Below, piece after piece: positions 2,165-22,898 of a stretch of 26,250 bases of DNA. How positions within the stretch are numbered: position 1 is the first letter of the stretch; each line of letters opens with the position of its first letter. A program made the position numbers and the translations under genes. Below the pieces are notes generated by a model. It did not search any database, was not told the DNA's origin, and was given only the letters and a program-made list of their open reading frames with translations. The stretch covers positions 1 to 26,250 of the forward strand of contig JANLHC010000135.1 in the NCBI GenBank assembly GCA_024654465.1, read 5' to 3'. This DNA comes from Candidatus Scalindua sp. Its GTDB lineage: Bacteria; Planctomycetota; Brocadiia; Brocadiales; Scalinduaceae.

Positions 2165-2335
2165 TCCAAAGACCTTTTTGATCTTGTTTTATTCTTTTTG
2201 TCTTAAAGCATTCATCACCTGACTATAATGGTGCCAGGATTTTAATTTTATCTTTGGAAGTATGCTTGACGGCGGAAAGGATAAATGGTAAAAGACTTAT
2301 GTTTAATTGATATTATTTGCAAGGAGCATACGACT

Positions 2336-2545
2336 ATGAGTATTGCAGAAAGAATTAATATAACTGTAAAAAGATTGCCGGAATTAAAGCAAATAGAAGT
2401 TCTCGATTTTGTTGAATATCTGCAATCACGAACTGAGAAAGAAGAGTATAAAGAATGGAATGATCTTTCACTTTCGTCTGCAATGCGTGGGATGGAAGAC
2501 GAACATTCCCCTTATTCTACAAATGATCTAAAAGAATGTTTTTAA
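2336..2545 (+). CDS. DUF2281-like antitoxin partner of MazF/PemK
   Basis: MSIAERINITVKRLPELKQIEVLDFVEYLQ... is typical of the short antitoxin found upstream of PemK toxins. An AGGAG lies 8 nt upstream of the ATG at 2336, so the ORF-track start at 2285 is probably an N-terminal over-extension. The stop overlaps the toxin start (TAATG). Confidence 0.7.
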   Translation: MSIAERINITVKRLPELKQIEVLDFVEYLQSRTEKEEYKEWNDLSLSSAMRGMEDEHSPYSTNDLKECF

Positions 2546-2892
2546 TGATTTCTGAAGGCCAAATTGTTCTATTCAAATTTCCTCAAACTGATCAAAAAGA
2601 AGGAAAACGACGACCAGCTCTTATATTACGTGAACTGCCAGGGAAATTTAACGACTGGCTTGTTTGCATGATATCCTCAAAAGTTGACCAACAAATCCTT
2701 GAGCTAGATGAACTTATTACTTCTGATGCTGCTGATTTTCTACAAACTGGATTAAAAGCACCAAGCGTCATTAGAACCAGCAGGCTTGCCGTTGTAGACG
2801 GGAATATACTTCTCGGGAAATTAGGTCAAATTAATACGGAACGGTTAAACAACATCAGACAAAAATTATCGAAATGGATTATTAAAGAATAA
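2545..2892 (+). CDS. mazF: PemK/MazF-family type II toxin (endoribonuclease)
   Basis: Family pattern GQIVLFKFPQTD...GKRRPALIL....DWLVCMISS......DELI.......GLKAPSVIRTSRLAVVD..ILLGKLGQI. The gene is coupled to the upstream antitoxin. Confidence 0.85.
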   Translation: MISEGQIVLFKFPQTDQKEGKRRPALILRELPGKFNDWLVCMISSKVDQQILELDELITSDAADFLQTGLKAPSVIRTSRLAVVDGNILLGKLGQINTERLNNIRQKLSKWIIKE

Positions 2893-6665: not shown

Positions 6666-6694
6666 TTGACATATCGATATAAGTTTGTTATTTT
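6666..6694 (+). promoter_or_regulatory. Candidate sigma70-type promoter for the ACP operon, with a palindrome in the spacer
   Basis: TTGACA (6666-6671), a 17-nt spacer, then TATTTT (6689-6694). The perfect 10-bp palindrome ATATCGATAT lies at 6671-6680. Confidence 0.3.
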
Positions 6695-6855
6695 GCCCTT
6701 TTCGATAGTTTTCATTTTATCGTAATCAAGTACCATCAATACTTTTAGACCAATAATTTTTACAGAAAGCAACTTCATAATACCCGATTGATAATTTTTT
6801 GATTGGTGTTTTGTGTATAGTTATATTTCTGGTTGTTTATTAGGGAGGTAAGATA

Positions 6856-7110
6856 TTGCCTGTAGAGAACTTAGAGAAAGATATTACTGCTATTGTAGCG
6901 GAAGTAACCGAGCTGGATGAGAATGAAATATGGGAGAAAAGAGATGCCGATTTTTTTAAGGATTTGGAGATTGATTCCTTATTAGCACTGGAAATTCTTG
7001 CCCTGATAGAAAAGAAATTCAAGGTTCAAATTCCGGAAGAAAAACTCGTAGACATCACATCATTGAATGCAACAATTGAAATGACCAGGTCTACACTTGA
7101 AGGAAAATAG
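6856..7110 (+). CDS. Acyl carrier protein (dedicated, cluster-associated)
   Basis: Phosphopantetheine-attachment motif DLEIDSLLALEIL and the 84-aa size fit an ACP. The TTG start is preceded by GGGAGG 8 nt upstream, with an in-frame TAG at 6841. Confidence 0.85.
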   Translation: MPVENLEKDITAIVAEVTELDENEIWEKRDADFFKDLEIDSLLALEILALIEKKFKVQIPEEKLVDITSLNATIEMTRSTLEGK

Positions 7111-7208
7111 TAAAAAGCTTGTAACGCTTCTTAAACATCTATATGCCTATACACGAACGATAAAAGTGGATATGCAGTGACTATTACATAGAACGAAAGG
7201 TTTTTTTA

Positions 7209-7658
7209 ATGTTGAACTTTGAGGAAGTAAGAGAGCTGGTTCCTCAAAAATACCCTTTCTTATTTATTGATAAAGTTATTGAGCTTCAAAAAGAGAGCAG
7301 GATTGTTTGTCTAAAAAACATCTCTGGTAATGAGCCTTTCTTCGCGGGACACTTCCCTGATTTTGCCATAATGCCTGGAGTTCTCATTGTAGAAGCTCTG
7401 GCGCAAGCCTCGATTATCCTCTTCAAAAAGAGCTTTGACACTGAGCAGTATAAAGATAAAGTCTTTTTGTTGGCTTCCGCAAACGTGCGTTTTTCAAAAC
7501 CTGTTTTTCCTGGCGACCAGCTAACTCTGGAAATTGATATAGAAAAGGTCATTTCCAGTGCGGCAATAGTTAAGGGAGTGGCCAAAGTGGGAGGCAAAGT
7601 TGTAACAAAAGCAACTTTGAGCTTTGGCGTTGCAAACAAAGATTCATTAACCGGATGA
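7209..7658 (+). CDS. fabZ: 3-hydroxyacyl-ACP dehydratase, FabZ type
   Basis: PFLFIDKV..., the hot-dog fold catalytic His in FFAGHFP, PGVLIVEALAQ with the catalytic Glu, and a length of 149 aa. Confidence 0.9.
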   Translation: MLNFEEVRELVPQKYPFLFIDKVIELQKESRIVCLKNISGNEPFFAGHFPDFAIMPGVLIVEALAQASIILFKKSFDTEQYKDKVFLLASANVRFSKPVFPGDQLTLEIDIEKVISSAAIVKGVAKVGGKVVTKATLSFGVANKDSLTG

Positions 7659-7687
7659 AAGTATTAGTATTTGTAAAGTAAACAACC

Positions 7688-8908
7688 ATGGATAAAAGAA
7701 TTGTAATTACCGGCCTGGGTGTAATTTCCCCTATAGGAAACCAAAAAGATCTGTTTTGGGATGCATTAATTTCCGGCACATCCGGTGTGTCTGAGGTCAC
7801 ATCATTTGACACCTCTCCTTTTAAAGTACATAAAGGCTGTTTCGTTAAAGATTTCAATTATGACGATTATACAAAAAATGGTTCTAGTCGAGAGATTGGC
7901 AAAGGTTCTCAATTTGCCATAGCAGCGGCAAAACTTGCTATCGAAGACTCTAATATTGGTTTAAATAATATTGATCCCGAAAGAGCTGGTGTTTCAATTG
8001 GAACAACTGCAGGTGAAATACAGATTCTGGAAAAGGTAAACTATATAAGACATGAAAAGGGAGAAGATAGTGTAGATCCTGGCCTGTTTCTTATGCATCC
8101 TTGCGTTAATATGCCGTCTAACATATCTATTGAATTTGGTTTTAAAGGTCCAAGCACAATAATACCTACTGCCTGTGCCGCCGGTAACTATGCTATCGGT
8201 TATGCATGTGATCTGATAAAATTGGGAAGAGCAGACATAATGCTTGCCGGTGGATCAGATCCGTTTTCTAAAGTTGCTTTTGTTGGTTTTAGTCGATTAA
8301 ATGCCATCGCGCCGGACATTTGCCAACCTTTTGATAAAAACAGAAAAGGCCTGTTAGTTGGAGAAGGTGCAGGGATGCTGGTATTAGAATCCCTGGAAGG
8401 TGCACTAGCCAGAAACGCAAATATCTATGCAGAAATCCTGGGTTACGGCCTGAGCTGTGACGGTTATCACATAACAATTCCGCATCCGGAAGGAAATGGC
8501 GTTACTTCGGCAATGGAAAAGGCCTTGATAAATGCCAAAATCAGACCCGAAGATGTTCAGTATATGAGTGCGCATGGTACAGGAACAGTCGCCAATGACA
8601 AAGCTGAAACTATATCAATAAAGAAGGTCTTTGGTAAACATGCAAAGAATCTGGCCATAAGCTCTATAAAATCAATGCTTGGCCACACAATGGGAGCTGC
8701 CAGCGCTATTGAGGCGATAGCGTGTGCTTTGGCTATTAAAGAGGGCGTTGTACCGCCAACGATAAACTACGAAACAAAAGACCCTGAGTGTGATTTGGAT
8801 TTTGTTCCAAATGTTAAACGTGAAATGCGGGTTGATATTGCCATGAATAATGCATATGCTTTTGGCGGTAACAATAGTAGTCTCATACTGAAAAAGTTTA
8901 CAGATTAA
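7688..8908 (+). CDS. fabF: Beta-ketoacyl-ACP synthase II (KAS II / FabF type), catalytically complete
   Basis: Cys163 lies in [12 protein letters not shown]. The two His residues lie in SAHGTGT and [14 protein letters not shown]. The C-terminal [15 protein letters not shown] is also typical. Confidence 0.92.
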
Positions 8909-9001
8909 AAGTTAAAATAGTGATGCCTTGGTATTCCGACTGAAAATACCGCTAGCATTTCTCAGCTTAAAAAATAATTTCTATAGAGGTAGATAGTATA
9001 T

Positions 9002-10237
9002 ATGAATAATCGCCTGGTTATAACTGGAATAAGTGTCTTATCGTCAATCGGTGTGAACAAGGATGAGTTCTGGATCAATTTGACAAATGGCGCTTCCGGA
9101 ATAAAAGATATCACGCTATTTGATGTCTCTAAATATAACAGCAAAAAAGCGGGTGAGATAACAGATTTTGATGCAAAAGAATACTTAGGGAAAAAAGGTA
9201 TTCGCCACATAGATAGAACATCGTTATTGGTATCCTCTGCGGCAAAACTTGCCATGGAAGATGCTAATATCACTCATGAAACTTATGGTGCCGACGAACT
9301 GGGGATAGTAATCGGGTCAACGTATGGCAGTATTGACAGTATCAGCTCATTCGACTTGGAAGGATTAAAGGAAGGACCAACTTTCGTAAATCCCATGGAA
9401 TTTCCAAATACTGTCCTAAATGCACCGGCAAGCAGGGTATCTATTTTCTGTAATGCGACAGGCTTAAATTCTACAATATCTACAGGTACTGCCAGTGGAT
9501 TGGACGCTATCATTTACGCTTCTGATTTCCTAAGGCTAGGCAGAGGAAAAGCGGTGGTAGCCGGCGGAGTTCATGGTTTAACTCCCGATGTTTTCTGGGG
9601 AGCTTACCGCTCAGGAATATTGTCAGGAAGCCGTAACGGTGATATTGAAATTTCCGCACCATTTGATAAAAGACGTAATGGCTTTATTATTGGCGAAGCT
9701 GCCGCATTACTTGTTATTGAAAGGCTCGAAGACGCATTGGAAAGAAACGCGAAAATCTATGCCGAGATAAAAGGATACGGATGTACGTTTAACCCTGACA
9801 AGGTTTCTCGTGACCACATTGACACCACCCAAGGCGTAAGATGTATCTCTATCGCAATGAAAGATGCCGGGATTAATTCCGAAGATATTTCTTATATCTC
9901 CGCATGCGCAAATTCCAGTATGACCGGCGACATAATGGAAGCTAGAATCATTAAAGACTATTTTGGTGATAACGCTGACAAGGTACCTGTGAGTGCAATA
10001 AAGTCAATGACAGGAGAATGCCTTGATGCATCAGGGTCATTACAGTGTGTTGCCGGTGTATTGGCAATCAATAATGGTATTATCCCTCCGACAATAAACT
10101 ATCAGGAAAAAGATGAAGAGTGTAATCTGGATTGCGTACCTAACAATAGCAGAGAATCAGAGGTAAACAATGTCCTTATCAACTCCTTTTCCGATACAGG
10201 CAACATTTCAGCGGTAATCATATCAAAATATTCATAA
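9002..10237 (+). CDS. KAS-fold paralogue lacking the Cys-His-His triad (KS-beta / chain-length-factor-like)
   Basis: It aligns along its full length to the upstream FabF. The equivalent positions read STGT163ASGLDA (Cys->Thr, codon 9488-9490), SAC302ANSSMTGD (His->Cys) and KSMTGE339CLDASG (His->Glu). Confidence 0.85.
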   Translation: MNNRLVITGISVLSSIGVNKDEFWINLTNGASGIKDITLFDVSKYNSKKAGEITDFDAKEYLGKKGIRHIDRTSLLVSSAAKLAMEDANITHETYGADELGIVIGSTYGSIDSISSFDLEGLKEGPTFVNPMEFPNTVLNAPASRVSIFCNATGLNSTISTGTASGLDAIIYASDFLRLGRGKAVVAGGVHGLTPDVFWGAYRSGILSGSRNGDIEISAPFDKRRNGFIIGEAAALLVIERLEDALERNAKIYAEIKGYGCTFNPDKVSRDHIDTTQGVRCISIAMKDAGINSEDISYISACANSSMTGDIMEARIIKDYFGDNADKVPVSAIKSMTGECLDASGSLQCVAGVLAINNGIIPPTINYQEKDEECNLDCVPNNSRESEVNNVLINSFSDTGNISAVIISKYS

Positions 10238-10256
10238 CTTCAAAGCGACAGTCTTC

Positions 10257-11690
10257 ATGAGTAATTTCTCTCTGAACAAATCTGAACTAAAATCCAAGTA
10301 TGATGTAATTGTACTGGGAGCCGGAATTGCCGGTCTAATCTGCGGGACTTTTCTGGCAAAACATGGAAAGAAAGTACTGATTATTGAACAACATAGTATT
10401 CCCGGAGGTTATTGTACCTCTTTCAAGAGAAAAGGCTTTATTTTTGATGCCGCAGTTCATCATATTGGTGGGTGTGGAAAATGGAGTGTTGTTGGCAGGT
10501 GCCTTAAAGAACTTGACATAAATATTAATTTCCTGCAACTTGACCCCATGGATAGCATACATTTCCCTTCATTTTCCATTGATGTACCTGCCGAGATCGA
10601 CGATTATGTGGATCTGTTAATGAAACGTTTTCCCTCAGAAAGGGAACAACTATCACTTTTTTTTAAGGAGTTTATCAGACTATATCGGGCTACATTCAGC
10701 ACTGAAAGACATGAGATGCTCATCAAATACCAGAACCTTACCTACAAGGAAATGTTGGATAAATTTTTTACAGATGAGCAGCTTAAAATGACACTTTCTG
10801 CACAGTGGGGATACATAGGTTCACCTCCTCACGAAGTTTCGGCTATTGGCATGTGTCAAATGCTGATAAATTATCTGAAAGATGGGGCTTATTTCCCAGT
10901 CGGCGGTACCCAGAATTTCTCAGATACAATCACTCAAAAATTTATTGACTATGGCGGACACATTATGCTATCTTCTAGCGCAGAGAAGGTACTAACAGAG
11001 GATAGTATTATAAAAGGAGTTACAACACAAAAAGGAGAGAAGATCACTGCTGATACTTTTGTTTCAAACATTGATCCCAAACAAACTTTTTTCTGTTTAA
11101 TAGATAAAAATACCGTTGATGACTCATTTCTTAGCAAGATTGAGAATATGAAGGAGAGTGTTTCATTCTTTTTACTATACCTTGGTCTTGATGACAAAAT
11201 AGACTTAAAAGGCCTGAAAAGAGGTTTTTACCATACATCAAAGAACTTAAATTTTTCCGGCAGTGACTGGTTTTATATTTCCGTTCCTACGGAAGTTGAT
11301 TCAAGCCTGGCACCTGATAACAAACAAATAATTTCTGTTGTTGCCTCGTCAAGAGACGATTACGACAACATAGACGATTGGGCCGCGTATAAAAATAAAA
11401 TGAAAGAACATACAATAAATTATCTGAAAAATTATGTACCAGACATTCAGAACCATATTGAAGTAATTGACGCCGCCACACCGAAGACGCTACATCGCTA
11501 CACACTTAACTCAAAAGGCGCGGCTTATGGTTGGGCTGTTACTGTAGACCAGACAGGATCAAATAGACTTCCGCACACAACACCTTTCAAAAATCTTTTT
11601 CTGGCCGGGCACTGGACTAATCCTGGGCCGGGGATATGTGCGGTTGTATCCTCTGGTTGGAGAGTCGCTAATATGATTTTAAATAATTAG
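10257..11690 (+). CDS. FAD-dependent oxidoreductase of the phytoene desaturase (CrtI/CrtD) family
   Basis: N-terminal dinucleotide fold YDVIVLGAGIAGLICGTFLAKHGKKVLIIEQHSIPGGYC. C-terminal LFLAGHWTNPGPGI. The 477-aa length fits the family. Confidence 0.85.
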   Translation: MSNFSLNKSELKSKYDVIVLGAGIAGLICGTFLAKHGKKVLIIEQHSIPGGYCTSFKRKGFIFDAAVHHIGGCGKWSVVGRCLKELDININFLQLDPMDSIHFPSFSIDVPAEIDDYVDLLMKRFPSEREQLSLFFKEFIRLYRATFSTERHEMLIKYQNLTYKEMLDKFFTDEQLKMTLSAQWGYIGSPPHEVSAIGMCQMLINYLKDGAYFPVGGTQNFSDTITQKFIDYGGHIMLSSSAEKVLTEDSIIKGVTTQKGEKITADTFVSNIDPKQTFFCLIDKNTVDDSFLSKIENMKESVSFFLLYLGLDDKIDLKGLKRGFYHTSKNLNFSGSDWFYISVPTEVDSSLAPDNKQIISVVASSRDDYDNIDDWAAYKNKMKEHTINYLKNYVPDIQNHIEVIDAATPKTLHRYTLNSKGAAYGWAVTVDQTGSNRLPHTTPFKNLFLAGHWTNPGPGICAVVSSGWRVANMILNN

Positions 11691-11702
11691 GAGGATTAAG
11701 AA

Positions 11703-13166
11703 ATGAAGAAAATGATGCTTATCAATCCACATCCCCCTGGGCGACATGGCGAGGAGAGCATATCTGTCATAGTTCAAATGCCGTTAAATCTGGCATACAT
11801 CGCGGCCCTTACACCGGGTGACTGGGAGTTCGACGTAATCGATGAAAATTTGGAACTAGCCCTTGATGATAACGGAGAAATTACATTTGAGCCTGTGGAT
11901 TTAGTTTGTATCACTTCTGTTACCTATCAAGTGCCAAGAGCTTACCAAATAGCCGAGATCTGCAGAAAAAAAGGTATGACCGTGATCATGGGTGGTATAC
12001 ACGCTTCGGTAGTGCCAGAGGAAGCCTCAAAATATGTGGATGCTATTTTTATCGGAGAGGCAGAGACTCTCTGGCCACAAGTCATTAAAGATTTTGAAAA
12101 TGGCGAACTCAAAAAAGAGTACAATGGCGGCCTGCCGGGCCTGTCAGAGATGAAGCATGTATTTCCAGATAGGGAACTTCTGAAGAAGAAGTATGATTAC
12201 AAGTTTTCATCTATTGTTACAACAAAAGGTTGTCCGAATTACTGCGATTTCTGCAGCGTACCAACCTTTCAGGGAAAAAAATACCGGGAAAGACCGTATG
12301 AAGACGTCCTGGACGAAATGGAAGCTACGGACTACAAGGGGCTCATGTTTGCCGAAGATAATTTTTATGGCCATAGCAAGAACTCTGCTAACAGGGCAAA
12401 GGCTCTCTTTCGTGGCATGATAGATAGGGGCATTAAAAAGGACTGGCTTGGGTTTACTGCACTCAACATATCAAAGGACGCAGAGGTACTTGATCTTATG
12501 GCAAAGAGTGGAAATTTTGGATTTCTCTGCGGCATAGAATCAACAAATGAAGCAGTTCTGGAGAAGATGAACAAAACGACTAATTTAAGAATTGGTGCCG
12601 ATAATTATTATGACAGCGTTCAAAAAATCCACGATCACGGCCTTGTTGTCTGGGGCTCTATAGTGTTGGGAGCAGATGGTGATGACAAAGATTCATTCAA
12701 AAGAATGACAGAATTTGTGCTGGAAAACAATATTGACGTTCTTACATTTGGCATTAATTGTCCGTTTCCTAAGACAGCGCTTTATGATAGGCTTGATTCT
12801 GAAAAGAGGATTTTTAGAAAGAATTACCCTGAAGACTGGAAATATTATGATACTGCACATGTGGTTCACAGACTTGTGGATATGAACCTTGAGGAGTTCA
12901 TAGACGGCATGCAATATATGTATGATCATCTGTATGCTGGAGACAACCTGAGAATGCGATTCAGGAAATCACTTCAAACTATTGGCAGTACGACTCATGG
13001 TAAACGTAACGCCATGTTTGGATTCAGGGTTGGCTCTGACTGGATACAGGTATTTGAGCAGGTACTGGAAAATCTTCGTCTACTATACGATTCAGGGGAT
13101 TATTACAAAGACTGGTACAAGAGCAGTGCCGTTACTGTTCCTTCCGATAAGGGAGTAACTGTTTAA
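11703..13166 (+). CDS. Cobalamin-binding-domain (class B) radical SAM enzyme
   Basis: Radical SAM motif C177PNYC181DFC184 (12231-12254). It is preceded by an N-terminal Rossmann-like B12-binding-type domain (DLVCITSVT...VIMGGIHAS). AGGAGG lies upstream, 12 nt after the desaturase stop. Confidence 0.85.
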   Translation: MKKMMLINPHPPGRHGEESISVIVQMPLNLAYIAALTPGDWEFDVIDENLELALDDNGEITFEPVDLVCITSVTYQVPRAYQIAEICRKKGMTVIMGGIHASVVPEEASKYVDAIFIGEAETLWPQVIKDFENGELKKEYNGGLPGLSEMKHVFPDRELLKKKYDYKFSSIVTTKGCPNYCDFCSVPTFQGKKYRERPYEDVLDEMEATDYKGLMFAEDNFYGHSKNSANRAKALFRGMIDRGIKKDWLGFTALNISKDAEVLDLMAKSGNFGFLCGIESTNEAVLEKMNKTTNLRIGADNYYDSVQKIHDHGLVVWGSIVLGADGDDKDSFKRMTEFVLENNIDVLTFGINCPFPKTALYDRLDSEKRIFRKNYPEDWKYYDTAHVVHRLVDMNLEEFIDGMQYMYDHLYAGDNLRMRFRKSLQTIGSTTHGKRNAMFGFRVGSDWIQVFEQVLENLRLLYDSGDYYKDWYKSSAVTVPSDKGVTV

Positions 13167-13184
13167 TTCATTTAATTAAAGTTC

Positions 13185-13240
13185 AAAGGCGCAGAAAAAT
13201 ATATCAGGCAAGAACATAATATTTTTCTGTGCCTTTTTGT
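13185..13240 (+). terminator. Rho-independent terminator closing the ACP-to-radical-SAM operon
   Basis: An 18-nt stem with one mismatch (aaaggcGcagaaaaatat / atatttttctgTgccttt) is followed by a T-run (ccttttt). Confidence 0.75.
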
Positions 13241-13466
13241 AGGCTTCAAGAATAAACTCCTTGCTTACATATGGCATGTGTAGCTCAGTATCTAACTCCT
13301 TTGACTCCATCTCCTTTCTTTTATTTTTATTAACCATTGTTCGCTAGAAATCTCCACACATCCCATAATTTTACTTATTTTTTAAAAATTCTACCATTTG
13401 TATACATCGCCACTTTGCCGTTATCGCGATCTTTATTGACAGTGTATTGACAAATAATATTTTTAA

Positions 13467-13556: not shown

Positions 13557-14048
13557 ATGTTAAATATTTATAGAAAACTTATCATTTCTATGGTTGCTTT
13601 GTTTGTGTTTGTTGTATTAAGCTTTGCAAATAGCACAATTAATAAGGTACAAGCAGTAGATTATATTAAAAAACCATCAGAAACCCATCATCAGTCATTT
13701 GAACCATATGAAAATCCAATCGTTATTCCTGATCCAAAACCCAGAGGCACTGTAGTAAGAGTTAAAGAGATAACGACATATGATGTCGTTGTTGATGAAG
13801 CAAAGATAGCAGCAAATAACGTTACCATGGCTGATCTCGAACTTATAGAGGTGAAGGACAAGAAGGATATCAATTTCCACCAGGTAGACTGTTATTTCTA
13901 TGCAAAGGTAAAACAGACTCAGACAAAATCAACAAACTATGGAGCAAGCACACGATGGAGAGAAGGAGAGCAATTCTGGCTATCAGACGGTGGGAAATAT
14001 GTTGAGTGGGAGCCATGGTCAGAATGGTATTCAGGTAATAAGTGGTAA
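13557..14048 (+). CDS. Secreted hypothetical protein with a Trp-rich C-terminus
   Basis: RBS GGAAGGTGG. Signal-peptide-like N-terminus (LIISMVALFVFVVLSFANS). C-terminus WREGEQFWLSDGGKYVEWEPWSEWYSGNKW. No family recognised. Confidence 0.6.
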   Translation: MLNIYRKLIISMVALFVFVVLSFANSTINKVQAVDYIKKPSETHHQSFEPYENPIVIPDPKPRGTVVRVKEITTYDVVVDEAKIAANNVTMADLELIEVKDKKDINFHQVDCYFYAKVKQTQTKSTNYGASTRWREGEQFWLSDGGKYVEWEPWSEWYSGNKW

Positions 14049-15009: not shown

Positions 15010-16002
15010 TCAAGGCACTTCTATATTATCAAAGATGTTTTGTATGACTTTTTCTGCGGTCATTTCTTCTGCTTCTGCTTCATAGGTTATGATAACTCTA
15101 TGTCGCAGCACATCCATTCCTATAGACTTTACATCTTGTGGAGTGACATAACCCCTGCCTTTGAGAAAAGCATATGCCTTTGACGCAATCGCCAGGTAAA
15201 TTGTTGCCCTGGGCGAAGCACCATATTCAATGAATTCACCTAAATTAAGGCCGTATTTCTGAGGATCTCTGGTGGCAATTACCAAGTCCACTATGTAGTC
15301 CTTTATCTTATCATCAATGTAAATCTGGTCGACTACCGCACGTAGGCGCTTAATGTCATCTGGTTTTAATACAGAATCCACTTTTATGTTGGTATCTGTC
15401 AATGCCATTCTGTCTAAAATCTCACGTTCTTCGCTTTTACTGGGATAATCAACATTAAGCTTTAACATGAATCTGTCAACCTGTGCTTCAGGCAAAGGAT
15501 AAGTACCTTCCTGCTCAATTGGGTTTTGTGTAGCAAGTACCAGGAAAGGATCTTCGAGTTTAAATGTCTCACTGCCTATCGTTACCTGCTTCTCCTGCAT
15601 AGCCTCTAAAAGCGCGCTCTGAACCTTTGCAGGTGCCCTGTTAATTTCATCAGCAAGTATAATATTTGAGAATATCGGTCCTTTTTTTGTAGTAAACTCA
15701 CCAGAACGAGGATTGTAGATAAGGGTACCTATCAGGTCTGCCGGCAGGAGATCAGGTGTAAATTGAAGCCTTTGGTACTTCACCTGAATTGCTTTTGCCA
15801 GTGTCATAACAGATAGGGTCTTTGCTAATCCGGGAACACCTTCCAGGAGGATATGGCCATTCGCCAGAATACCAATCAGCAATCTTTCTATAAGATGTTT
15901 TTGTCCTACAATTACTTTCCCCATCTCATTGCTTAGGTTAGAAAGAACACCGCTCTCTTCTTTAATAATATCCGTTATATTTTTAATGTCTTTTGATTCC
16001 AT
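15010..16002 (-). CDS. MoxR-family AAA+ ATPase (AAA_3)
   Basis: GHILLEGVPGLAKT (Walker A), ILADEINRAPAKVQSALLEAMQEKQVT (Walker B/sensor) and ATQNPIEQEGTYPLPEAQVDRF. Confidence 0.92.
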   Translation of the reverse strand: MESKDIKNITDIIKEESGVLSNLSNEMGKVIVGQKHLIERLLIGILANGHILLEGVPGLAKTLSVMTLAKAIQVKYQRLQFTPDLLPADLIGTLIYNPRSGEFTTKKGPIFSNIILADEINRAPAKVQSALLEAMQEKQVTIGSETFKLEDPFLVLATQNPIEQEGTYPLPEAQVDRFMLKLNVDYPSKSEEREILDRMALTDTNIKVDSVLKPDDIKRLRAVVDQIYIDDKIKDYIVDLVIATRDPQKYGLNLGEFIEYGASPRATIYLAIASKAYAFLKGRGYVTPQDVKSIGMDVLRHRVIITYEAEAEEMTAEKVIQNIFDNIEVP

Positions 16003-16070
16003 ATTAGTCTACACTTGTTTGATGGTTATCGGAAGTAAAAGTCAAAGTTAGATAGTCTTATGAACTTTTG

Positions 16071-18374
16071 TTATTGAATTTCTCTTACTACGCATGCTTC
16101 TATCAGATCTTCAATCTTATCTTTATTCATCAGGTAGACAAAGTTTGTCTCTGAACCGGTAACATAATAATCATTACCGGCTTCTTTGCCAACCAGCAAT
16201 GAGACCTCACCATCGTCAAAACTAATGGTAATATTGAACTGTGGGTTATCTAATCCATATTTTGATAAATCCTTGTTTGAATACTGTACAATAGACTCAC
16301 CCATCAGTAACTTCATTGAAGAAATGATTCGATCTGCTAAATTCCCACTCAATAGCATGATTTCCGGTTTGATCATTTGCCACACATGTTCTTCATTTTT
16401 CTGAAAAAGCAGCTCATTTTCAGGATGTATTATTTTAATAGACTTCGCATTTGTGGAATCGAAGCTAAACAGTGTCCTTGTGACAAGCTCAATACTGTAA
16501 TCCCTGACGTCAGTCCACCCTACCTGAAAAACCATATCCTGACCATCCACCTTAGCATAGTAGTTAGATTTATCCTTTTCCGGTTCAACTTTATTTCCTA
16601 TCAGGAGCGTTTTTGTTTTCAATTCCTTTGGCTTTACCAAGTCACTCTTCTCACTAATTACTTCATCGCTGTGCGCAGCCATTCCAGATGCTTCGTATGT
16701 TACAGATGCTTTTAACAGAGGCTTGTCAAGCCCATAATCAGCAAGATTTTCTGCTGAAAGAGTCACTATCTTATCAGCCAACAAAAATGATAGATTCCAT
16801 ACCACTTGATTGATGGAGTCCAATTCTGCTTCCATTGTTACAGGACTTACCATATTCCACTTCGGCCTGCGCATAGTAGAATCTTCCGTCGTCTCACATA
16901 TGAGTGTTTTACCATCACGCTCTATGACTATTTTTTGAGCTGTTTCCTTGGGAAATTCCATGACTAATTTATCTCTGAATGCGAGATAACCAGCCTTAGC
17001 AATTTCATAAAAATTTTCCGTTGGAACGGTATATACAGCATCTTCTCCGTCTCGCCTTACATAGCACAGTCCACCATTTTCGTCTGCATTACCTATCAAA
17101 AATTTCACCGTTTCACCTTCGCCGATTCTTCTGAATACTGAAACTTCGATAGGTGAGTCTGCTAATCCGTACTTCTCAAAGTTATCACCACTATCGTCAA
17201 CATACTGCTGTATCTGCAAATCCTTAATTTTTTCCACGAATTCTCTTACCGTATCTCTATCAGCCAGAATTTCTTTTGGCGATTTAATCATCCAGTCATA
17301 TTGCGCTGTCTTTTCCATAACAAGGTGTGCATCAGAAGATTTCAAATCAATTTTTTCTATCCCGTAAGTACCTATTGCATCAAACCTCAATAGCTGTTTG
17401 TCCCGCAAATCGTTCAGTTCCAAATCTAGATCGCGAAGAATAATATCGTGTACTAGAAAAATAGAACTTTCGCCGTCAAGCTTTGCGTAGATCTTTTCAT
17501 CCAGACGGTGACCCAAACGGAGAGTTTGCACATTGTCTGTAGTACCTATACTGATAGTAAATACGGGCTTATCCAGACCGTAGTTGATAATATCTTCTTT
17601 GCTATCAGACACAAAATCCTCTTTTGCAATCTTCAGGTTTTTTAATTCATTGAGAATATCCTGGATTCTTTCAGTATCAGCACGGTCTGAAAGTGGTTGT
17701 GTTATCCACCAGAGTTGCTCCGCCTTAGAACACACCACAGGCTCATTCTCGCCGCTCTCAAGTCTCAATCTTTCTACAGAATGTTTATCATACTCAAATG
17801 CCCATTTATTTCTTAAATCATTGATTTCTTTGTTTACTTTCTCCAGAAATTTAGCGTCAACGACAGAAACATTCTTGTCGTCCCCCACAGTTATATATAC
17901 AGTGTCTTGTCCGGCTGCCAGCCTATCCCCGATACTAACGGTATACTTGGTAACATCTCCGGCAGTTCCACCAACCATTGAACCCTTTTTAAGCCAGAGG
18001 CTAACAACAAGATCTGGGGTTTCAAGGCCATATTCTTTCAAGCTGAAGTTTGCTGTTTCACTTTCTTTAACAACACCGATTTTTCTCAGAAACTCAAATT
18101 GTGCGAGAATTTCTGCCACCTCAGCTTTGTCAGCTCTCAGTTGCAGAGGCTCCACCATCCTCCAGTTCTCATTATCGGTACTTTCAAGGACGATATTAGT
18201 ATCCCCCTTTTTCATTTCAATTTTATTAATCTGGCCTGGTTTGTAATCCGGCAATACCATTTGCTGCCTCTGTACCCATACATCTGTCCTGTATTGTCTT
18301 TTGTCATACAGAAATATGTATGCCGCACCAATGCCTGCAATTATTAAAAGTATTATAGTCGTTCTAAATTTCAT
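16071..18374 (-). CDS. DUF4340-type protein with five tandem domain repeats and an N-terminal membrane anchor
   Basis: The likely start is MKFRTTIILLIIAGIGAAYIF (ATG at 18374, which avoids overlap with the upstream gene). The motif pair W.(M/I)..P...AD......(I/V) followed by YGL(D/E).P occurs five times, with YGL at residues 135/285/422/567/726 of the 787-aa track ORF. Position after a GldG-like gene is typical for DUF4340. Confidence 0.75.
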   Translation of the reverse strand: MKFRTTIILLIIAGIGAAYIFLYDKRQYRTDVWVQRQQMVLPDYKPGQINKIEMKKGDTNIVLESTDNENWRMVEPLQLRADKAEVAEILAQFEFLRKIGVVKESETANFSLKEYGLETPDLVVSLWLKKGSMVGGTAGDVTKYTVSIGDRLAAGQDTVYITVGDDKNVSVVDAKFLEKVNKEINDLRNKWAFEYDKHSVERLRLESGENEPVVCSKAEQLWWITQPLSDRADTERIQDILNELKNLKIAKEDFVSDSKEDIINYGLDKPVFTISIGTTDNVQTLRLGHRLDEKIYAKLDGESSIFLVHDIILRDLDLELNDLRDKQLLRFDAIGTYGIEKIDLKSSDAHLVMEKTAQYDWMIKSPKEILADRDTVREFVEKIKDLQIQQYVDDSGDNFEKYGLADSPIEVSVFRRIGEGETVKFLIGNADENGGLCYVRRDGEDAVYTVPTENFYEIAKAGYLAFRDKLVMEFPKETAQKIVIERDGKTLICETTEDSTMRRPKWNMVSPVTMEAELDSINQVVWNLSFLLADKIVTLSAENLADYGLDKPLLKASVTYEASGMAAHSDEVISEKSDLVKPKELKTKTLLIGNKVEPEKDKSNYYAKVDGQDMVFQVGWTDVRDYSIELVTRTLFSFDSTNAKSIKIIHPENELLFQKNEEHVWQMIKPEIMLLSGNLADRIISSMKLLMGESIVQYSNKDLSKYGLDNPQFNITISFDDGEVSLLVGKEAGNDYYVTGSETNFVYLMNKDKIEDLIEACVVREIQ

Positions 18375-18399
18375 AGTTATATAAAGTCTCCGTTTATTA

Positions 18400-19986
18400 T
18401 TATCTTCTTCTTCTCCACCAGACGTAGCCGCCAATTATTATTCCGATAGAAGGTAGCCCTGCAATAGACAGCCAGAATATTGCAGCTAGTTGTCCAGGCC
18501 TGACAATCGCCCTCCTGACGTCAGGAGCTTTAGCAGATATCCCTAACTCCTTTTCCCTCCGAGCCAGCCAGCTTATAGCATTTAAGACAAGGTCCTGATT
18601 TCCCGGGTTATCAGAAAATGCGTTTGCGGCAAAATCTGTATCACCGAAGACAACAACACGCGGCCCCTTTTTACCAATATCGGCAAAAGCCTGTGTAGCA
18701 TGTGGAGGTGCAGTAGGGTTTGGTTTCGCTTCTCTCAGCTCTGATACCGCTGCTAAGATAATTGGAGAACTAATATCTGAGTCTTCATCATATTTCGGTC
18801 TTTTTTTACCAACTATCTCAGTTTCACCCCAACTTTGGTCGGGAGCTTGTACAATCCCTGTAGCAACGAATGCCATTGTGTCGCTCAAAGGGGCAATGCT
18901 AAGTACGCTTGAACCATAAAAAACTGATGTCAGTTTTTTGATGTCTGCTGTTATCTCATGGTCTAAGTATTTCTTATCACTTATATAAACCTCAACAACC
19001 GTCTGCATACCAAAAAGCGGCATATTCACTTTGTTGTATACAACGGCATCATCCCTGACAACTATACCGTATTCTCCAAGCAATGCACTTAAACCAGGTG
19101 ATTTATTGACGCCTACGGCAGGTTCAAGCATTACGAGTAACTTGCCGTTTTTAAGTTCACCTTTATCGTTTATCAGTCTTGCCGAAGTTCCAACATAGTC
19201 TCGAATATAGTTTGTTTCTTGTGTTGAGAAACTTTTTGTTGGACCGGCAATGAAGAGTATGTCGCAATTTTCAGGAACTCGCTTCTGTTGTAATAAATCA
19301 AGTGGCAGAACGTTGTAATTAGCACGTTTGATAGCGCTTGCCAATTTTCCTAAGCCCGCACGTTCAAAATCCTCGTAATCTCTCTCTCCATGTCCTTTGG
19401 TAAAGTAAACGTTTGTCTGTTTTTCCCGTGTTACATTTAAAACTGCTGACGTAAAGATCTCTTCGCCCTTGAATTTGAAAGGAAATTCTCTTTCGATTAC
19501 CTCTGATTGTTGTACATGTTTACTTTTATCTCCACAAGTGAAGATTATAGAATTGATTTGCAATTGCTCCAGATCCATCTTGAGCTTCTCTGCCAGCTCA
19601 GTTATTTTAGTACGATCGGTCAACGGGTTCAGGAGAGTAACCGTTATCTTGTCTGATAGATACTTATATTCTTCAAGTATATCTATGACCTGCCCGTAAA
19701 AACGGTAATCCTGTTTTTTTACCAGAAGTGAGGTAATAAAAACAGGTTGATCAAGATTTTTCAGAATTTTCTTTGTTTTAGCACTTAGTGAGTATTTTCC
19801 AGACGCAGTAAAGTCACAACGGTAGTAATGTCTATCGTTAATATAGCTGACAAAGACAAAGATCGCGATAGCGATAAGTATCATAAAAATCACATTAGCC
19901 CCGATCAGGGTTTTTTGTTTTTTTATATTTTGTGGATTCTCTGGTGTTATTACTTCTTTATTATTCAATGACTTTCCTACCTCCAT
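18400..19986 (-). CDS. GldG-like auxiliary component of an ABC-2 transport system
   Basis: N- and C-terminal TM anchors flank a large periplasmic domain, ending ...GGYVWWRRRR. The gene overlaps the upstream permease gene by 10 nt. The order ATPase-permease-GldG is conserved. Confidence 0.75.
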   Translation of the reverse strand: MEVGKSLNNKEVITPENPQNIKKQKTLIGANVIFMILIAIAIFVFVSYINDRHYYRCDFTASGKYSLSAKTKKILKNLDQPVFITSLLVKKQDYRFYGQVIDILEEYKYLSDKITVTLLNPLTDRTKITELAEKLKMDLEQLQINSIIFTCGDKSKHVQQSEVIEREFPFKFKGEEIFTSAVLNVTREKQTNVYFTKGHGERDYEDFERAGLGKLASAIKRANYNVLPLDLLQQKRVPENCDILFIAGPTKSFSTQETNYIRDYVGTSARLINDKGELKNGKLLVMLEPAVGVNKSPGLSALLGEYGIVVRDDAVVYNKVNMPLFGMQTVVEVYISDKKYLDHEITADIKKLTSVFYGSSVLSIAPLSDTMAFVATGIVQAPDQSWGETEIVGKKRPKYDEDSDISSPIILAAVSELREAKPNPTAPPHATQAFADIGKKGPRVVVFGDTDFAANAFSDNPGNQDLVLNAISWLARREKELGISAKAPDVRRAIVRPGQLAAIFWLSIAGLPSIGIIIGGYVWWRRRR

Positions 19987-20687
19987 TTTCTACTCTCAAC
20001 ATTTCGTACTGTTATAAACAAAAGTAATGCCGTAAAACTCAGATAGTAAATTACATCCCTGGTATCCACAATGCCTTTTGTAAAAGATGACCAATGGTCA
20101 TAAGTCCCAATATACCGTAGTGATTCGTAAAACCAACCATCACCGTACGTACTTAGAAAACCAACTACCCATAGAATTATTAATGCAACTATTCCGATCA
20201 CGGCAGCAACAACTTGATTCTTAGTTAACGATGACACAAGCAAACCGATAGATACAAATAGTCCACCCATAAGTATTAGTCCAATATAACTGGAAAAAAT
20301 TGGCCCGAAGTCCGGATTCCCGAAAATACTCAGAAATAATACATATATCCATGTCGGAAGGATCATTACAGTATACAGGCTTAAGGCGGCAAGAAATTTA
20401 CCAAATACTACATCAAAATCTGTTACCGGAGAAGTCATGAGTGTTTCCATCGTCCCGGACTTTGACTCATCTGCAAAAAGCTTCATGGTGATCACGGGCG
20501 TAAGCAACAGAAGGAAAAATTGAATTGAGTCCAGGCTTCCCTTAAGGGAAGCTTCCTGCCAGAACTGCAGATTGCCTGCAAAAAAGAAACCGGATGCAAT
20601 AAGGAATACAGAAATCACAACGTATGCAATTGGTGAATAAAAGTAGGACAAGATTTCTCGTTGAAATATAGTAGTTACGTTACGCAC
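19977..20687 (-). CDS. ABC-2 family permease (GldF-like)
   Basis: 236 aa with about 6 hydrophobic helices. It overlaps the ATPase gene by 8 nt. Confidence 0.8.
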   Translation of the reverse strand: MRNVTTIFQREILSYFYSPIAYVVISVFLIASGFFFAGNLQFWQEASLKGSLDSIQFFLLLLTPVITMKLFADESKSGTMETLMTSPVTDFDVVFGKFLAALSLYTVMILPTWIYVLFLSIFGNPDFGPIFSSYIGLILMGGLFVSIGLLVSSLTKNQVVAAVIGIVALIILWVVGFLSTYGDGWFYESLRYIGTYDHWSSFTKGIVDTRDVIYYLSFTALLLFITVRNVESRKWR

Positions 20688-22610: not shown

Positions 22611-22622
22611 CATATCTCAAAA

Positions 22623-22898
22623 ATGGAGATCAATGAAAACTTTGTACCAGTGACGAAGGGATGCGTTGAACTTGAGGAACTTGATGATGGCTGCATACTT
22701 TATGATACAGAGAAAGACGATGTGCACAGCTTAAATAGCACCGCAGCTACTGTCTGGATATGCTGTGATGGAAAGCATTCAATAGAGGAAATAGTGAACG
22801 TTGTAGAAAAAAGTTTCAAATCTGAAAGTAAGCCAGTTCTGAGAGACATAATAAAAATCATCAAAGATTTCTCAAAAAAAAAGCTTTTAACTCAATAA
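22623..22898 (+). CDS. PqqD-family protein (RiPP recognition element / peptide chaperone)
   Basis: ELDDGCILYDTEKDDVHSLNSTAATVWICCDGKHSIEEIVNVVEKSF....PVLRDIIKIIKDFSKKKLL follows the PqqD pattern (L.g....d.....h.LN.ta..iW...dG..t..ei...l). Confidence 0.8.
   Translation: MEINENFVPVTKGCVELEELDDGCILYDTEKDDVHSLNSTAATVWICCDGKHSIEEIVNVVEKSFKSESKPVLRDIIKIIKDFSKKKLLTQ

What the first reader, a model, noticed from the sequence alone, without database searches (positions are those of the whole stretch)
6666..13240. ACP-FabZ-KS-KSbeta-CrtI-like desaturase-B12/radical-SAM operon: ladderane-candidate architecture
Seen: six same-strand genes span 6856-13166 with gaps of 98, 29, 93, 19 and 12 nt. They follow a ~520-nt AT-rich intergenic region with a TTGACA-17-TATTTT candidate promoter and end at a strong hairpin plus T-run (13185-13240), so this looks like one transcription unit. 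The content is a dedicated ACP, a FabZ dehydratase, a complete KAS II, a triad-less KAS paralogue, a phytoene-desaturase-family flavoenzyme and a cobalamin-domain radical SAM enzyme. No FabD, FabH, FabG, FabI or acyltransferase lies in the window, so this is not the housekeeping fab operon. It appears to be an add-on that would extend and dehydrate an ACP-bound chain, then desaturate it and modify it by radical chemistry. Established knowledge, recalled from memory and needing verification: comparative genomics of anammox Planctomycetes ('Candidatus Kuenenia' and relatives) singled out clusters of this composition as candidates for ladderane (fused cyclobutane) lipid synthesis. As far as I know, no enzyme has been shown biochemically to form a ladderane ring. 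Inference: KS/KS-beta pairs elsewhere (type II PKS, aryl-polyene-type systems) build polyene or poly-beta-keto chains. That fits a route of polyene formation followed by radical cyclisation.
Basis: partly seen in the sequence, partly recalled or inferred. Interest (0 to 1): 0.88.

Follow-up and report, generated by a model that had tools for sequence, protein, structure and literature searches.

The report
Known anammox ladderane-candidate gene cluster
This is a near-identical copy, from a marine Scalindua anammox bacterium, of the six-gene "Cluster I" already proposed and partly characterised as the candidate pathway for ladderane lipids, so it is a correct rediscovery; the same gene set also turns up in bacteria labelled as non-anammox.

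Summary
Observation confirmed. Six same-strand genes (6856-13166) encode ACP, FabZ, an intact FabF, a triad-less FabF paralogue, a CrtI-family flavoenzyme and a B12-domain radical SAM enzyme. All gaps are as stated, and a strong hairpin plus T-run follows. The promoter is only a consensus match.

The window comes from a Candidatus Scalindua MAG. The six proteins are 96-99% identical to S. brodae, whose amxACP and amxFabZ have crystal structures. This is the orthologue of kuste3603-3608, "Cluster I" of Rattray 2009. It carries the published signatures: FabZ Ile69, and FabFmut Thr/Cys/Glu in place of Cys/His/His.

The ladderane link remains unproven. E. coli expressing kuste3603-3608 made no new fatty acids.

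One added result: papers call the cluster unique to anammox bacteria. I found a co-orthologous cluster with the same order and the same signature residues in contigs labelled Acidobacteria/Vicinamibacteria and Planctomycetota (12 of 44 metagenome loci). This weakens the phyletic argument.

Novelty: already known.

The parts
6666..6694 (+). Candidate sigma-70-type promoter (TTGACA-17-TATTTT with TG). Status: consensus match only.
   Evidence: 10 of 12 matches, but 29 such sites in the region against 22 +/- 4.5 in shuffles. It is identical in S. brodae, but the whole intergenic region is 98% identical, so conservation says nothing.
6842..6848 (+). Shine-Dalgarno sequence AGGGAGG, 7 nt upstream of the TTG start of the ACP gene
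   Evidence: Read directly. The N-terminus MPVENLEK matches the crystallised S. brodae amxACP, which begins PVENLEK.
6856..7110 (+). amxACP: dedicated acyl carrier protein (84 aa, DSL motif with Ser41)
   Evidence: PF00550, 52.8 bits. Below the cut-offs of all housekeeping ACP equivalogs. 82 of 83 residues identical to PDB 7QV0 chain D, the S. brodae amxACP.
7209..7658 (+). amxFabZ: 3-hydroxyacyl-ACP dehydratase variant (149 aa; His48, Glu62, Ile69)
   Evidence: FabA-like domain and TIGR01750. 97% identical to S. brodae amxFabZ over the whole protein; the PDB 7QV0/8AYI chains differ at 4-5 positions. Ile69 replaces the canonical Gly (PMC10139942).
7688..8908 (+). amxFabF2: active beta-ketoacyl-ACP synthase II (406 aa; Cys163, His296, His333)
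   Evidence: Best solved relative is PDB 9S5H chain B, E = 3e-204.
9002..10237 (+). amxFabFmut: catalytically dead FabF paralogue, chain-length-factor-like (411 aa; Thr/Cys/Glu in place of Cys/His/His)
   Evidence: Best solved relative is PDB 9S5H chain C, E = 5.5e-175. The Thr at the Cys position is the Scalindua variant described in bioRxiv 10.64898/2026.05.19.726425.
10257..11690 (+). PDH: CrtI/phytoene-desaturase-family FAD enzyme (477 aa), substrate unknown
   Evidence: PF01593 and PF13450. TIGR02734 scores 160.6 bits, below its 238.1 cut-off. Closest solved structure is CrtI 4DGK, E = 1.8e-23. 96% identical to S. brodae.
11703..13166 (+). B12-binding-domain radical SAM enzyme (487 aa; Cys177-x3-Cys181-x2-Cys184), reaction unknown
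   Evidence: PF04055, PF02310 and PF13282. 79-80% identical to the Kuenenia and Brocadia orthologues. The AlphaFold model (pLDDT 83.5) matches AprD4, MgmA, TsrM, OxsB, TokK and CysS.
13185..13240 (+). Intrinsic-terminator-like hairpin (18-bp stem, 16-nt loop) plus T-run that ends the operon
   Evidence: -22.1 kcal/mol, z = -4.86. Pairing is preserved in S. brodae through wobble-compatible changes, and the T-run is longer there.

Best explanation
This is the Scalindua orthologue of the anammox 'Cluster I' (kuste3603-3608). It is a single operon for a self-contained, ACP-specific side branch of type II fatty-acid synthesis.

Shown for close orthologues:
- amxFabF2 and the dead paralogue amxFabFmut form a KS/chain-length-factor-like heterodimer. 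It decarboxylates malonyl-amxACP, which primes synthesis, and it prefers C6-C8 chains.
- amxFabZ dehydrates 3-hydroxyacyl chains of up to about C8, and only when they are carried on amxACP.

Inferred:
- Ketoreduction and enoyl reduction are supplied from elsewhere in the genome.
- The CrtI-family flavoenzyme and the B12-domain radical SAM enzyme act on the amxACP-tethered short chain. The first would desaturate, isomerise or saturate it. The second would carry out radical C-H functionalisation, meaning C-C bond formation or methylation.
- In anammox bacteria the product most likely feeds ladderane lipid synthesis. The cluster is probably not sufficient for this on its own, and it is not proven to form the cyclobutane rings.
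For: Gene content, order and spacing.

Source organism and near-identity to S. brodae: Candidatus Scalindua sp.; the six proteins are 96-99% identical to contig JRYO01000154.1; ACP 82/83 identical and FabZ 97% identical to the crystallised S. brodae proteins.

Signature residues: FabZ His48/Glu62/Ile69, FabF2 Cys/His/His, FabFmut Thr/Cys/Glu, and the CxxxCxxC motif of the radical SAM enzyme.

The six-gene order is kept in every contig long enough to show it, across anammox lineages with 51-96% protein identity.

Biochemistry of the orthologues comes from PMC10139942 (amxFabZ: short-chain preference and amxACP specificity) and bioRxiv 10.64898/2026.05.19.726425 (heterodimer, malonyl-ACP decarboxylation, C6/C8 preference). 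High expression of the cluster in Kuenenia is reported in PMC4790861.

The radical SAM model has the fold of cobalamin-type radical SAM enzymes. These include CysS and TokK, which work on pantetheine-linked substrates.
Against: No experiment links any protein of the cluster to ladderanes (PMC10139942; the 2026 preprint; PMC13459092). Anaerobic E. coli expressing kuste3603-3608 made all six proteins but no new fatty acids (PMC4790861). kuste3607 showed no CrtI activity in that study.

The cluster is not confined to anammox bacteria. A co-orthologous six-gene cluster with the same signature residues occurs in contigs labelled Acidobacteria, Vicinamibacteria and Planctomycetota.

Cobalamin binding by the radical SAM enzyme is inferred from the domain only. 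Its best structural match, AprD4, is to my knowledge not cobalamin-dependent.
Confidence: 0.65

Rival explanations
1. The KS pair and FabZ build a long chain or polyene, the CrtI-like enzyme adds conjugated double bonds, and the B12 radical SAM enzyme triggers a radical cascade that folds the polyene into fused cyclobutanes.
For: The gene content allows it. KS1 is almost as close to the polyene-forming ishigamide ketosynthase 6KXD (E = 1.2e-100) as to FabF. It is one of three proposals listed in PMC13459092.
Against: No polyunsaturated or cyclopropyl fatty acids are detected in anammox bacteria. None appear in E. coli expressing the cluster. The labelling pattern does not fit. amxFabZ hardly converts chains longer than C8, and the heterodimer favours C6/C8 (PMC10139942, PMC4790861, the 2026 preprint). 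A single polycyclisation is considered energetically unfavourable (PMC13459092).
Confidence: 0.1
2. The cluster is not the ring-forming machinery at all. It makes a short or medium modified acyl chain, for example the C6-C8 linear part or a methylated or otherwise radical-modified fatty acid. This kind of product is shared with non-anammox bacteria. The ladder itself is made or attached by other genes, such as the kuste2802-2805-type module or other radical SAM enzymes.
For: The same six genes, in the same order and with the same signature residues, occur in contigs labelled Acidobacteria, Vicinamibacteria and Planctomycetota. There they are usually followed by an SDR. The characterised enzymes prefer short chains, and the 'type b' proposal is favoured in PMC10139942. 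The E. coli expression result was negative (PMC4790861). Anammox genomes carry a second B12-rSAM plus KS pair module.
Against: The cluster is strictly conserved across all sampled anammox lineages and is highly expressed. The lipids of the non-anammox carriers are unknown, so they might themselves make related ring lipids. In one non-anammox locus (L086) the six-gene set lies beside a divergent second B12-rSAM and further KS pairs; in L091 the adjacent second rSAM is a close duplicate of the six-gene one, not kuste2803-type. kuste2803-type modules themselves were seen only in anammox-type loci.
Confidence: 0.22
3. It is an aryl-polyene or other type II PKS pigment cluster.
For: There is a KS plus inactive-KS pair and a FabZ-like dehydratase. 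Precomputed Pfam hits include ApeI-like and ApeP-like families for the dehydratase.
Against: The window has no ammonia lyase, thioesterase, second ACP, ketoreductase, cyclase/aromatase, glycosyl- or acyltransferase, or LolA/MMPL export genes. The dehydratase scores best as FabZ and is the crystallised amxFabZ. The dead KS lacks the Gln typical of chain-length factors.
Confidence: 0.02
4. It is a second housekeeping fatty-acid synthesis operon.
For: Four of the six proteins belong to FAS II families.
Against: ACP, FabF and FabZ all score below the NCBIfam equivalog cut-offs: 45.9 against 70.45, 467.3 against 493.75, and 154.8 against 155.15. There is no FabD, FabH, FabG or FabI. amxFabZ ignores substrates on the canonical ACP (PMC10139942). 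Canonical fab genes lie elsewhere in anammox genomes (kustd1386-1391, PMC4790861).
Confidence: 0.01

Closest known systems
Anammox 'Cluster I': kuste3603-3608 of Kuenenia stuttgartiensis and its orthologues in Scalindua brodae and Brocadia fulgida (Rattray 2009; Dietl 2023; Granatino 2026)
   Same: Same six genes in the same order and with the same signature residues. The proteins are 96-99% identical to S. brodae, and the radical SAM enzyme is 79-80% identical to the Kuenenia and Brocadia ones. The flanking genes match S. brodae.
   Different: Only strain-level differences from S. brodae, plus a 104-nt insertion downstream of the terminator. The Cys position of FabFmut is Thr, as in Scalindua, whereas other anammox genera have Val.
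Type II polyketide ketosynthase/chain-length-factor pairs (actinorhodin ActI-ORF1/2; ishigamide Iga11/Iga12, PDB 6KXD)
   Same: Adjacent genes for an active KS and an inactive paralogue. The anammox orthologues form a heterodimer that decarboxylates malonyl-ACP (2026 preprint). KS1 hits 6KXD at E = 1.2e-100 and 1TQY at 3e-81.
   Different: The dead subunit has Thr rather than the Gln typical of chain-length factors (the Gln is from my own knowledge). Both subunits are closer to FabF than to PKS ketosynthases. A FabZ dehydratase is present, and there are no cyclases or aromatases.
Second anammox module kuste2802-2805 (ACP synthase, B12 radical SAM, FabF, non-canonical FabB)
   Same: It contains a paralogous B12-domain radical SAM enzyme (52-54% identical) followed by an active KS and a degenerate KS (PMC4790861).
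   Different: It has no ACP, FabZ or flavoenzyme. It is not in this window. Its radical SAM enzymes form a separate clade with 100% bootstrap support.
Sister six-gene cluster in contigs labelled Acidobacteria bacterium 13_1_40CM_2_60_7, Vicinamibacteria and Planctomycetota (L002, L090, L091, L095-L098, L102)
   Same: Same order: ACP, FabZ, KS, dead KS, CrtI-like enzyme, B12 radical SAM. FabZ has Ile69, the first KS keeps Cys/His/His, the second has lost the triad, and the CxxxCxxC motif is kept. The radical SAM enzymes group with the Cluster I type rather than the kuste2803 type, with 76% bootstrap support.
   Different: Protein identity to the window is 36-57% over the six proteins in L002, L090 and L091. 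GC content is 53-70%. An SDR gene usually follows, and a KAS III gene sometimes lies nearby. The hosts are not known to carry out anammox, and their lipids are unknown.
Cobalamin-type (class B) radical SAM enzymes: MgmA, TsrM, OxsB, TokK, CysS, and the related AprD4
   Same: An N-terminal Rossmann-like B12 domain plus a radical SAM barrel. Foldseek gives E = 1e-18 to 1e-12 and probability 1.0. CysS and TokK act on pantetheine-linked substrates.
   Different: Only 13-18% sequence identity. No curated family covers this protein. TIGR04072 ('rSAM_ladder_B12') scores 82.4 bits against a 360-bit cut-off. The reaction is unknown.

Membership tests
Anammox Cluster I (kuste3603-3608 type) | Six genes in the order ACP, FabZ, FabF2, FabFmut, CrtI-like PDH, B12 radical SAM on one strand | tested here: met
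   The same order is seen in S. brodae and other anammox loci.
Anammox Cluster I (kuste3603-3608 type) | The host is an anammox bacterium (Brocadiales) | tested here: met
   The exact proteins are deposited as Candidatus Scalindua sp.. The locus is 96-99% identical in protein, and syntenic, with S. brodae JRYO01000154.1. Hydrazine synthase genes are not in the window, so this rests on identity and labels.
Anammox Cluster I (kuste3603-3608 type) | amxFabZ signature: a bulky Ile at position 69 where canonical FabZ has Gly, with catalytic His48 and Glu62 | tested here: met
   The feature is defined in PMC10139942.
Anammox Cluster I (kuste3603-3608 type) | amxFabF2 has an intact Cys-His-His triad, and amxFabFmut has the triad replaced (Val/Thr; Asn/Glu/Cys) | tested here: met
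   KS1 has C163/H296/H333 and KS2 has T/C/E. The feature is described in the 2026 preprint.
Anammox Cluster I (kuste3603-3608 type) | Exclusive to ladderane producers, as claimed in the literature | tested here: not met
   Co-orthologous six-gene clusters occur in contigs labelled Acidobacteria, Vicinamibacteria and Planctomycetota. This contradicts the claim about the family. It does not affect the membership of this window.
Anammox Cluster I (kuste3603-3608 type) | The product is a ladderane lipid or its precursor | not testable with these tools
   No experiment shows this for any orthologue (PMC10139942, PMC13459092). Heterologous expression was negative (PMC4790861).
Type II PKS KS/CLF pair | An active KS plus an inactive partner that form a heterodimer | tested here: inconclusive
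   The sequence features are present. The heterodimer is shown only for Brocadia and Kuenenia orthologues (2026 preprint). PDB 9S5H chains B and C are the best hits.
Type II PKS KS/CLF pair | Gln at the Cys position of the chain-length factor, with cyclase, aromatase or ketoreductase genes alongside | tested here: not met
   Thr is at that position. No such genes are in the window.
Aryl-polyene cluster | Ammonia lyase, thioesterase, two ACPs, ketoreductase, acyl- or glycosyltransferase, and LolA/MMPL export genes | tested here: not met
   None were found among the ORFs of the window that were scanned.
Housekeeping FAS II operon | FabH, FabD and FabG present, and ACP, FabF and FabZ above the equivalog cut-offs | tested here: not met
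   All three score below their cut-offs. FabD, FabH, FabG and FabI are absent.
NCBIfam TIGR04072 (rSAM_ladder_B12, lipid biosynthesis B12-binding/radical SAM protein) | Score of at least 360 bits | tested here: not met
   82.4 bits.
Cobalamin-dependent (class B) radical SAM enzymes | CxxxCxxC cluster motif, an N-terminal B12-binding domain, and the class B fold | tested here: met
   C177/C181/C184. PF02310 scores 37.8 bits against a 32.1 cut-off. Actual cobalamin binding cannot be tested here.
CrtI phytoene desaturase family | TIGR02734 score of at least 238.1 bits, and phytoene desaturase activity | tested here: not met
   160.6 bits. The orthologue kuste3607 gave no lycopene in a CrtI replacement assay (PMC4790861). 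It is a member of the wider amine-oxidase/FAD superfamily only.

The most novel reading that the evidence does not exclude
Bacteria outside the anammox lineage carry a complete co-orthologue of the 'ladderane' operon. They are soil Acidobacteriota (Vicinamibacteria-like) and high-GC Planctomycetota. Their clusters have the same 'anammox-specific' signature residues, and in L086 a divergent second B12-rSAM and further KS pairs lie alongside. The most novel reading is that these bacteria use the cluster to make ladderane-like or other radical-cyclised or radical-modified fatty acids. Such lipids, and the biomarker, would then not be unique to anammox bacteria.
Probability: 0.1. Interest if true: 0.85.

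Novelty: already known. Interest (0 to 1): 0.3.

Why it matters
Ladderane biosynthesis is a long-standing unsolved problem, and this operon is the field's main candidate. The window adds nothing to that, because it is a strain-level copy of the S. brodae cluster whose ACP and FabZ are already crystallised.

The useful by-product concerns the claim that the cluster is unique to ladderane producers. That claim is used as an argument for its role, and it does not hold at the sequence level. A sister clade with identical architecture exists in bacteria labelled as non-anammox.

This has two consequences. It weakens the phyletic argument. It also offers alternative, possibly aerobic and easier to express, versions of the two uncharacterised enzymes (the CrtI-like flavoenzyme and the B12 radical SAM enzyme) for biochemical work.

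Tried and rejected
- A genome-collection scan with a radical SAM profile was swamped by generic B12 radical SAM enzymes.
- The homologue search with the window's flavoenzyme listed only Scalindua and Brocadiales proteins in its top 120. It gave no view of distant carriers. Repeating it with the Acidobacteria-labelled protein did.
- Phylogenetic footprinting of the promoter failed, because the S. brodae intergenic region is 98% identical throughout.
- Rfam found no leader or riboswitch in the window.
- The terminator scan missed the hairpin because its loop exceeds 8 nt. Folding confirmed the hairpin.
- A possible link between the cluster and the neighbouring ABC-transporter/DUF4340/MoxR genes was considered, because a similar set sits next to the sister cluster in L090. 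The adjacency is confined to Scalindua among anammox loci and is absent from the other sister loci, so it is probably lineage synteny.
- A literature search for 'Tripitaka californicus' found nothing.
- The aryl-polyene and housekeeping-FAS readings were rejected on gene content and family cut-offs.

Full report
OBSERVATION

The gaps are 98, 29, 93, 19 and 12 nt. Pfam and NCBIfam assign them to the following families:
- a PP-binding acyl carrier protein;
- FabZ;
- a full FabF;
- a second FabF-like protein;
- an amine-oxidase/CrtI-family flavoprotein;
- a B12-binding plus radical SAM protein with a DUF4070 tail.

The first ketosynthase keeps Cys163/His296/Lys328/His333. The second has Thr/Cys/Lys/Glu at the same columns. 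The radical SAM enzyme has Cys177-x3-Cys181-x2-Cys184.

Upstream lies a 521-nt intergenic region after a divergent ParA-like gene. The TTGACA-17-TATTTT site is there (6666-6694). However, the same scan finds 29 promoter-like sites against 22 +/- 4.5 in shuffles, so the site is only a consensus match. A strong AGGGAGG Shine-Dalgarno sequence precedes the TTG start.

The hairpin at 13185-13236 is real. It has an 18-bp stem, an energy of -22.1 kcal/mol and z = -4.9, and it is followed by a T-run. None of the 20 other larger ORFs of the window that were scanned carries a FabD, FabH, FabG, FabI or acyltransferase domain.

WHERE IT COMES FROM

The radical SAM protein occurs, residue for residue, on NCBI contig JANLIF010000070.1 of assembly GCA_024654085.1. 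An exact look-up of five of the six proteins (the ACP was not submitted) finds each deposited as 'Candidatus Scalindua sp.'.

A look-up of the nearest flavoenzyme relative returned the S. brodae contig JRYO01000154.1 (L093). It has the same six genes and the same neighbours on both sides. Identity to S. brodae is 99% for ACP, 97% for FabZ, 96% for KS1, 98% for KS2, 96% for the flavoenzyme and 99% for the radical SAM enzyme. The upstream intergenic region is 98% identical.

The ACP is 82/83 identical, and the FabZ 97% identical over its whole length (4-5 differing positions in the crystallised chains), to the crystallised S. brodae amxACP and amxFabZ (PDB 7QV0, 8AYI). The two ketosynthases find PDB 9S5H chains B and C as best hits, with E = 3e-204 and 5.5e-175. 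That entry holds two KAS chains, and its sister entry 9S5I adds an 80-residue ACP. This fits the Brocadia fulgida heterodimer described in the 2026 preprint, but that link is my inference because the preprint text does not give the codes.

WHAT IS KNOWN ABOUT IT

This is the orthologue of kuste3603-3608, called 'Cluster I'. Rattray et al. 2009 singled it out as a ladderane candidate (PMC2649909). The findings since then are:
- Javidpour et al. 2016 expressed kuste3603-3608 anaerobically in E. coli. All six transcripts and proteins were detected, but no new fatty acids appeared. kuste3607 could not replace CrtI (PMC4790861).
- Dietl et al. 2023 solved amxFabZ. They defined Ile69 as its signature, showed a steep loss of activity beyond C8, and showed that it acts only on amxACP-bound substrates (PMC10139942).
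- Granatino et al. 2026 showed that amxFabF2 and amxFabFmut form a KS/chain-length-factor-like heterodimer. It decarboxylates malonyl-ACP and favours C6/C8.
- A 2026 review still lists three unproven routes and no demonstrated ring-forming enzyme (PMC13459092).

The window's proteins carry every published signature. FabZ has His48/Glu62/Ile69. FabFmut has Thr at the Cys position, which is the variant reported for Scalindua.

THE TWO UNCHARACTERISED ENZYMES

Neither the flavoenzyme nor the radical SAM enzyme has a solved close relative. The nearest are CrtI 4DGK at E = 1.8e-23 and MgmA 9CCB at E = 4.6e-14.

The flavoenzyme scores below the CrtI-family cut-off, 160.6 against 238.1 bits.

The radical SAM enzyme is not a member of TIGR04072 'rSAM_ladder_B12' (82 against 360 bits). 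Its best curated hits are HpnJ, PhpK, BchE and HpnR, all far below their cut-offs. An AlphaFold model built on 17 homologues (pLDDT 83.5, pTM 0.84) matches AprD4, MgmA, TsrM, OxsB, TokK and CysS by Foldseek, with E = 1e-18 to 1e-12. It therefore has the class B fold. That class includes methyltransferases and ring-contracting or ring-forming enzymes, and some of them act on pantetheine-linked substrates. The fold does not reveal the reaction.

CONSERVATION AND DISTRIBUTION

Within anammox lineages the order is invariant. It is the same in L005, L006 and L089. It is also the same in all 19 anammox-type metagenome loci long enough to show all six genes, at 51-96% protein identity.

Anammox genomes also carry a paralogous module of the kuste2802-2805 type: ACP synthase, B12 radical SAM, KS and a degenerate KS. 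In one 5.1-Mb contig this module sits divergently next to Cluster I and continues with an OYE-type reductase, an enoyl-CoA hydratase, an SDR and a muconolactone-isomerase-like gene.

Contrary to the statements that Cluster I is 'encountered exclusively' in, or 'unique to', ladderane producers, I found the same six genes in the same order outside anammox-labelled genomes:
- contigs deposited as Acidobacteria bacterium 13_1_40CM_2_60_7 (L002, L003, L095; GC 60%);
- an ENA contig with GC 68% (L090);
- a JGI contig of 120 kb;
- a 479-kb contig of a 'Planctomycetota bacterium' MAG (L091; GC 57.5%);
- further soil-type metagenome contigs (L096-L098, L102).

Identities of the L002, L090 and L091 clusters to the window are 46-56% for ACP, 45-50% for FabZ, 53-57% for KS1, 36-41% for KS2, 40-42% for the flavoenzyme and 56% for the radical SAM enzyme. 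These clusters share Ile69 in FabZ, an intact first KS, a second KS that has lost the triad, and the CxxxCxxC motif. An SDR gene usually follows them.

Apart from its own group (57-76% identity, one member labelled Vicinamibacteria), the closest relatives of the Acidobacteria-type flavoenzyme are the anammox Cluster I flavoenzymes at 43-47%. In an outgroup-rooted NJ tree the non-anammox radical SAM enzymes fall with the Cluster I type rather than the kuste2803 type, with 76% bootstrap support. The anammox Cluster I, kuste2803-type and Acidobacteria/Planctomycetota groups each have 100% support.

In a metagenome scan, 12 of 44 loci of this cluster type were of the non-anammox kind.

Three caveats apply. 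'Non-anammox' rests on the depositors' MAG labels, GC content and flanking genes; I could not test those genomes for hydrazine synthase. The GC ranges of the two groups overlap at 0.53-0.55. Genome-mining papers have already noted antiSMASH 'ladderane' clusters in other phyla without resolving what they are (PMC9902471, PMC11968836). What is added here is that the complete Cluster I architecture, with its 'amx' signatures, is shared.

HOW IT MOST LIKELY WORKS

Shown for orthologues at strain to family distance:
- The FabF2/FabFmut heterodimer primes synthesis by decarboxylating malonyl-amxACP and handles short chains.
- amxFabZ dehydrates (3R)-hydroxyacyl-amxACP up to about C8 and ignores the housekeeping ACP.

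Inferred:
- The operon runs a private, amxACP-bound short-chain FAS branch.
- Ketoreductase and enoyl reductase are supplied in trans. The sister clusters carry an SDR next door.
- The CrtI-like enzyme desaturates, isomerises or possibly saturates the tethered chain. CrtI-family members do all three, to my own knowledge.
- The B12-domain radical SAM enzyme performs a radical C-H functionalisation.

I put 0.65 on this description, including a role in ladderane lipid synthesis in anammox bacteria that is not sufficient alone.

The alternative gains weight from the sister clade and the negative E. coli experiment (0.22). In that alternative the cluster makes a modified short acyl unit of a kind also made by other bacteria, and the ladder is built elsewhere.

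VERDICT

The identification as the anammox ladderane-candidate cluster is correct.

The feature is already known, and this copy is nearly identical to a structurally studied one, so interest as a discovery is low. The one point worth passing on is that the 'unique to anammox' premise fails at the sequence level.

Noticed in passing
L002:5476-11476; L090:5845-11861; L091:5807-11903; L095-L098, L102: A complete six-gene co-orthologue of the operon occurs in contigs labelled Acidobacteria, Vicinamibacteria and Planctomycetota (GC 53-70%). It has the same order, FabZ Ile69 and a dead second KS, and it is usually followed by an SDR. This contradicts published statements that the cluster is unique to anammox bacteria.
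   Followed up: partly
L089:3035-18040: In a 5.1-Mb low-GC contig, Cluster I lies divergently next to the kuste2802-2805-type module. That module contains a B12 radical SAM enzyme, a KS and a degenerate KS, and it is extended by an OYE-type reductase, an enoyl-CoA hydratase, an SDR and a muconolactone-isomerase-like gene. In the window's Scalindua the two modules are not adjacent.
   Followed up: partly
L086:4101-21437: A GC 66% metagenome contig holds a much larger hybrid cluster. The six gene types are interrupted by an FGE-sulfatase-like gene and a polyketide cyclase-like gene. They are followed by a second B12 radical SAM enzyme, two more KS pairs, a ferredoxin, an enoyl-CoA hydratase, an SDR and a KAS III.
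   Followed up: no
window 15010-21633 (- strand): A MoxR AAA ATPase, a 787-aa DUF4340 protein, a GldG-like ABC auxiliary protein, an ABC-2 permease and an ABC ATPase lie about 2 kb downstream of the operon. A similar ABC set sits directly upstream of the sister cluster in L090. However, the adjacency is seen only in Scalindua among anammox loci and not in the other sister loci, so it is probably lineage synteny.
   Followed up: partly
window 13314-13417: There is a 104-nt insertion relative to S. brodae and L092, between the terminator hairpin and the next gene (13557-14048). NCBI also calls a 53-aa minus-strand ORF across the hairpin (about 13176-13337), which is probably spurious.
   Followed up: no
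window 2285-2892: A MazF/PemK-type toxin gene (2536-2892) is overlapped at its start by a small upstream ORF that carries a weak DUF2281 hit. This is a likely type II toxin-antitoxin pair.
   Followed up: no
window 22203-24973: A cNMP-binding protein, a PqqD-like small protein (22623-22898), an unassigned 292-aa ORF and a PF14907 nucleotidyltransferase lie in a row. PqqD-like proteins with such partners can mark peptide-modification clusters.
   Followed up: no
window 6856-13166 compared with L006, L089, L105-L139: Conservation is uneven across anammox families. The ACP (71-85%) and the radical SAM enzyme (70-80%) are the best kept. The CrtI-like enzyme (51-62%) and the dead KS (55-67%) are the least kept.
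   Followed up: partly
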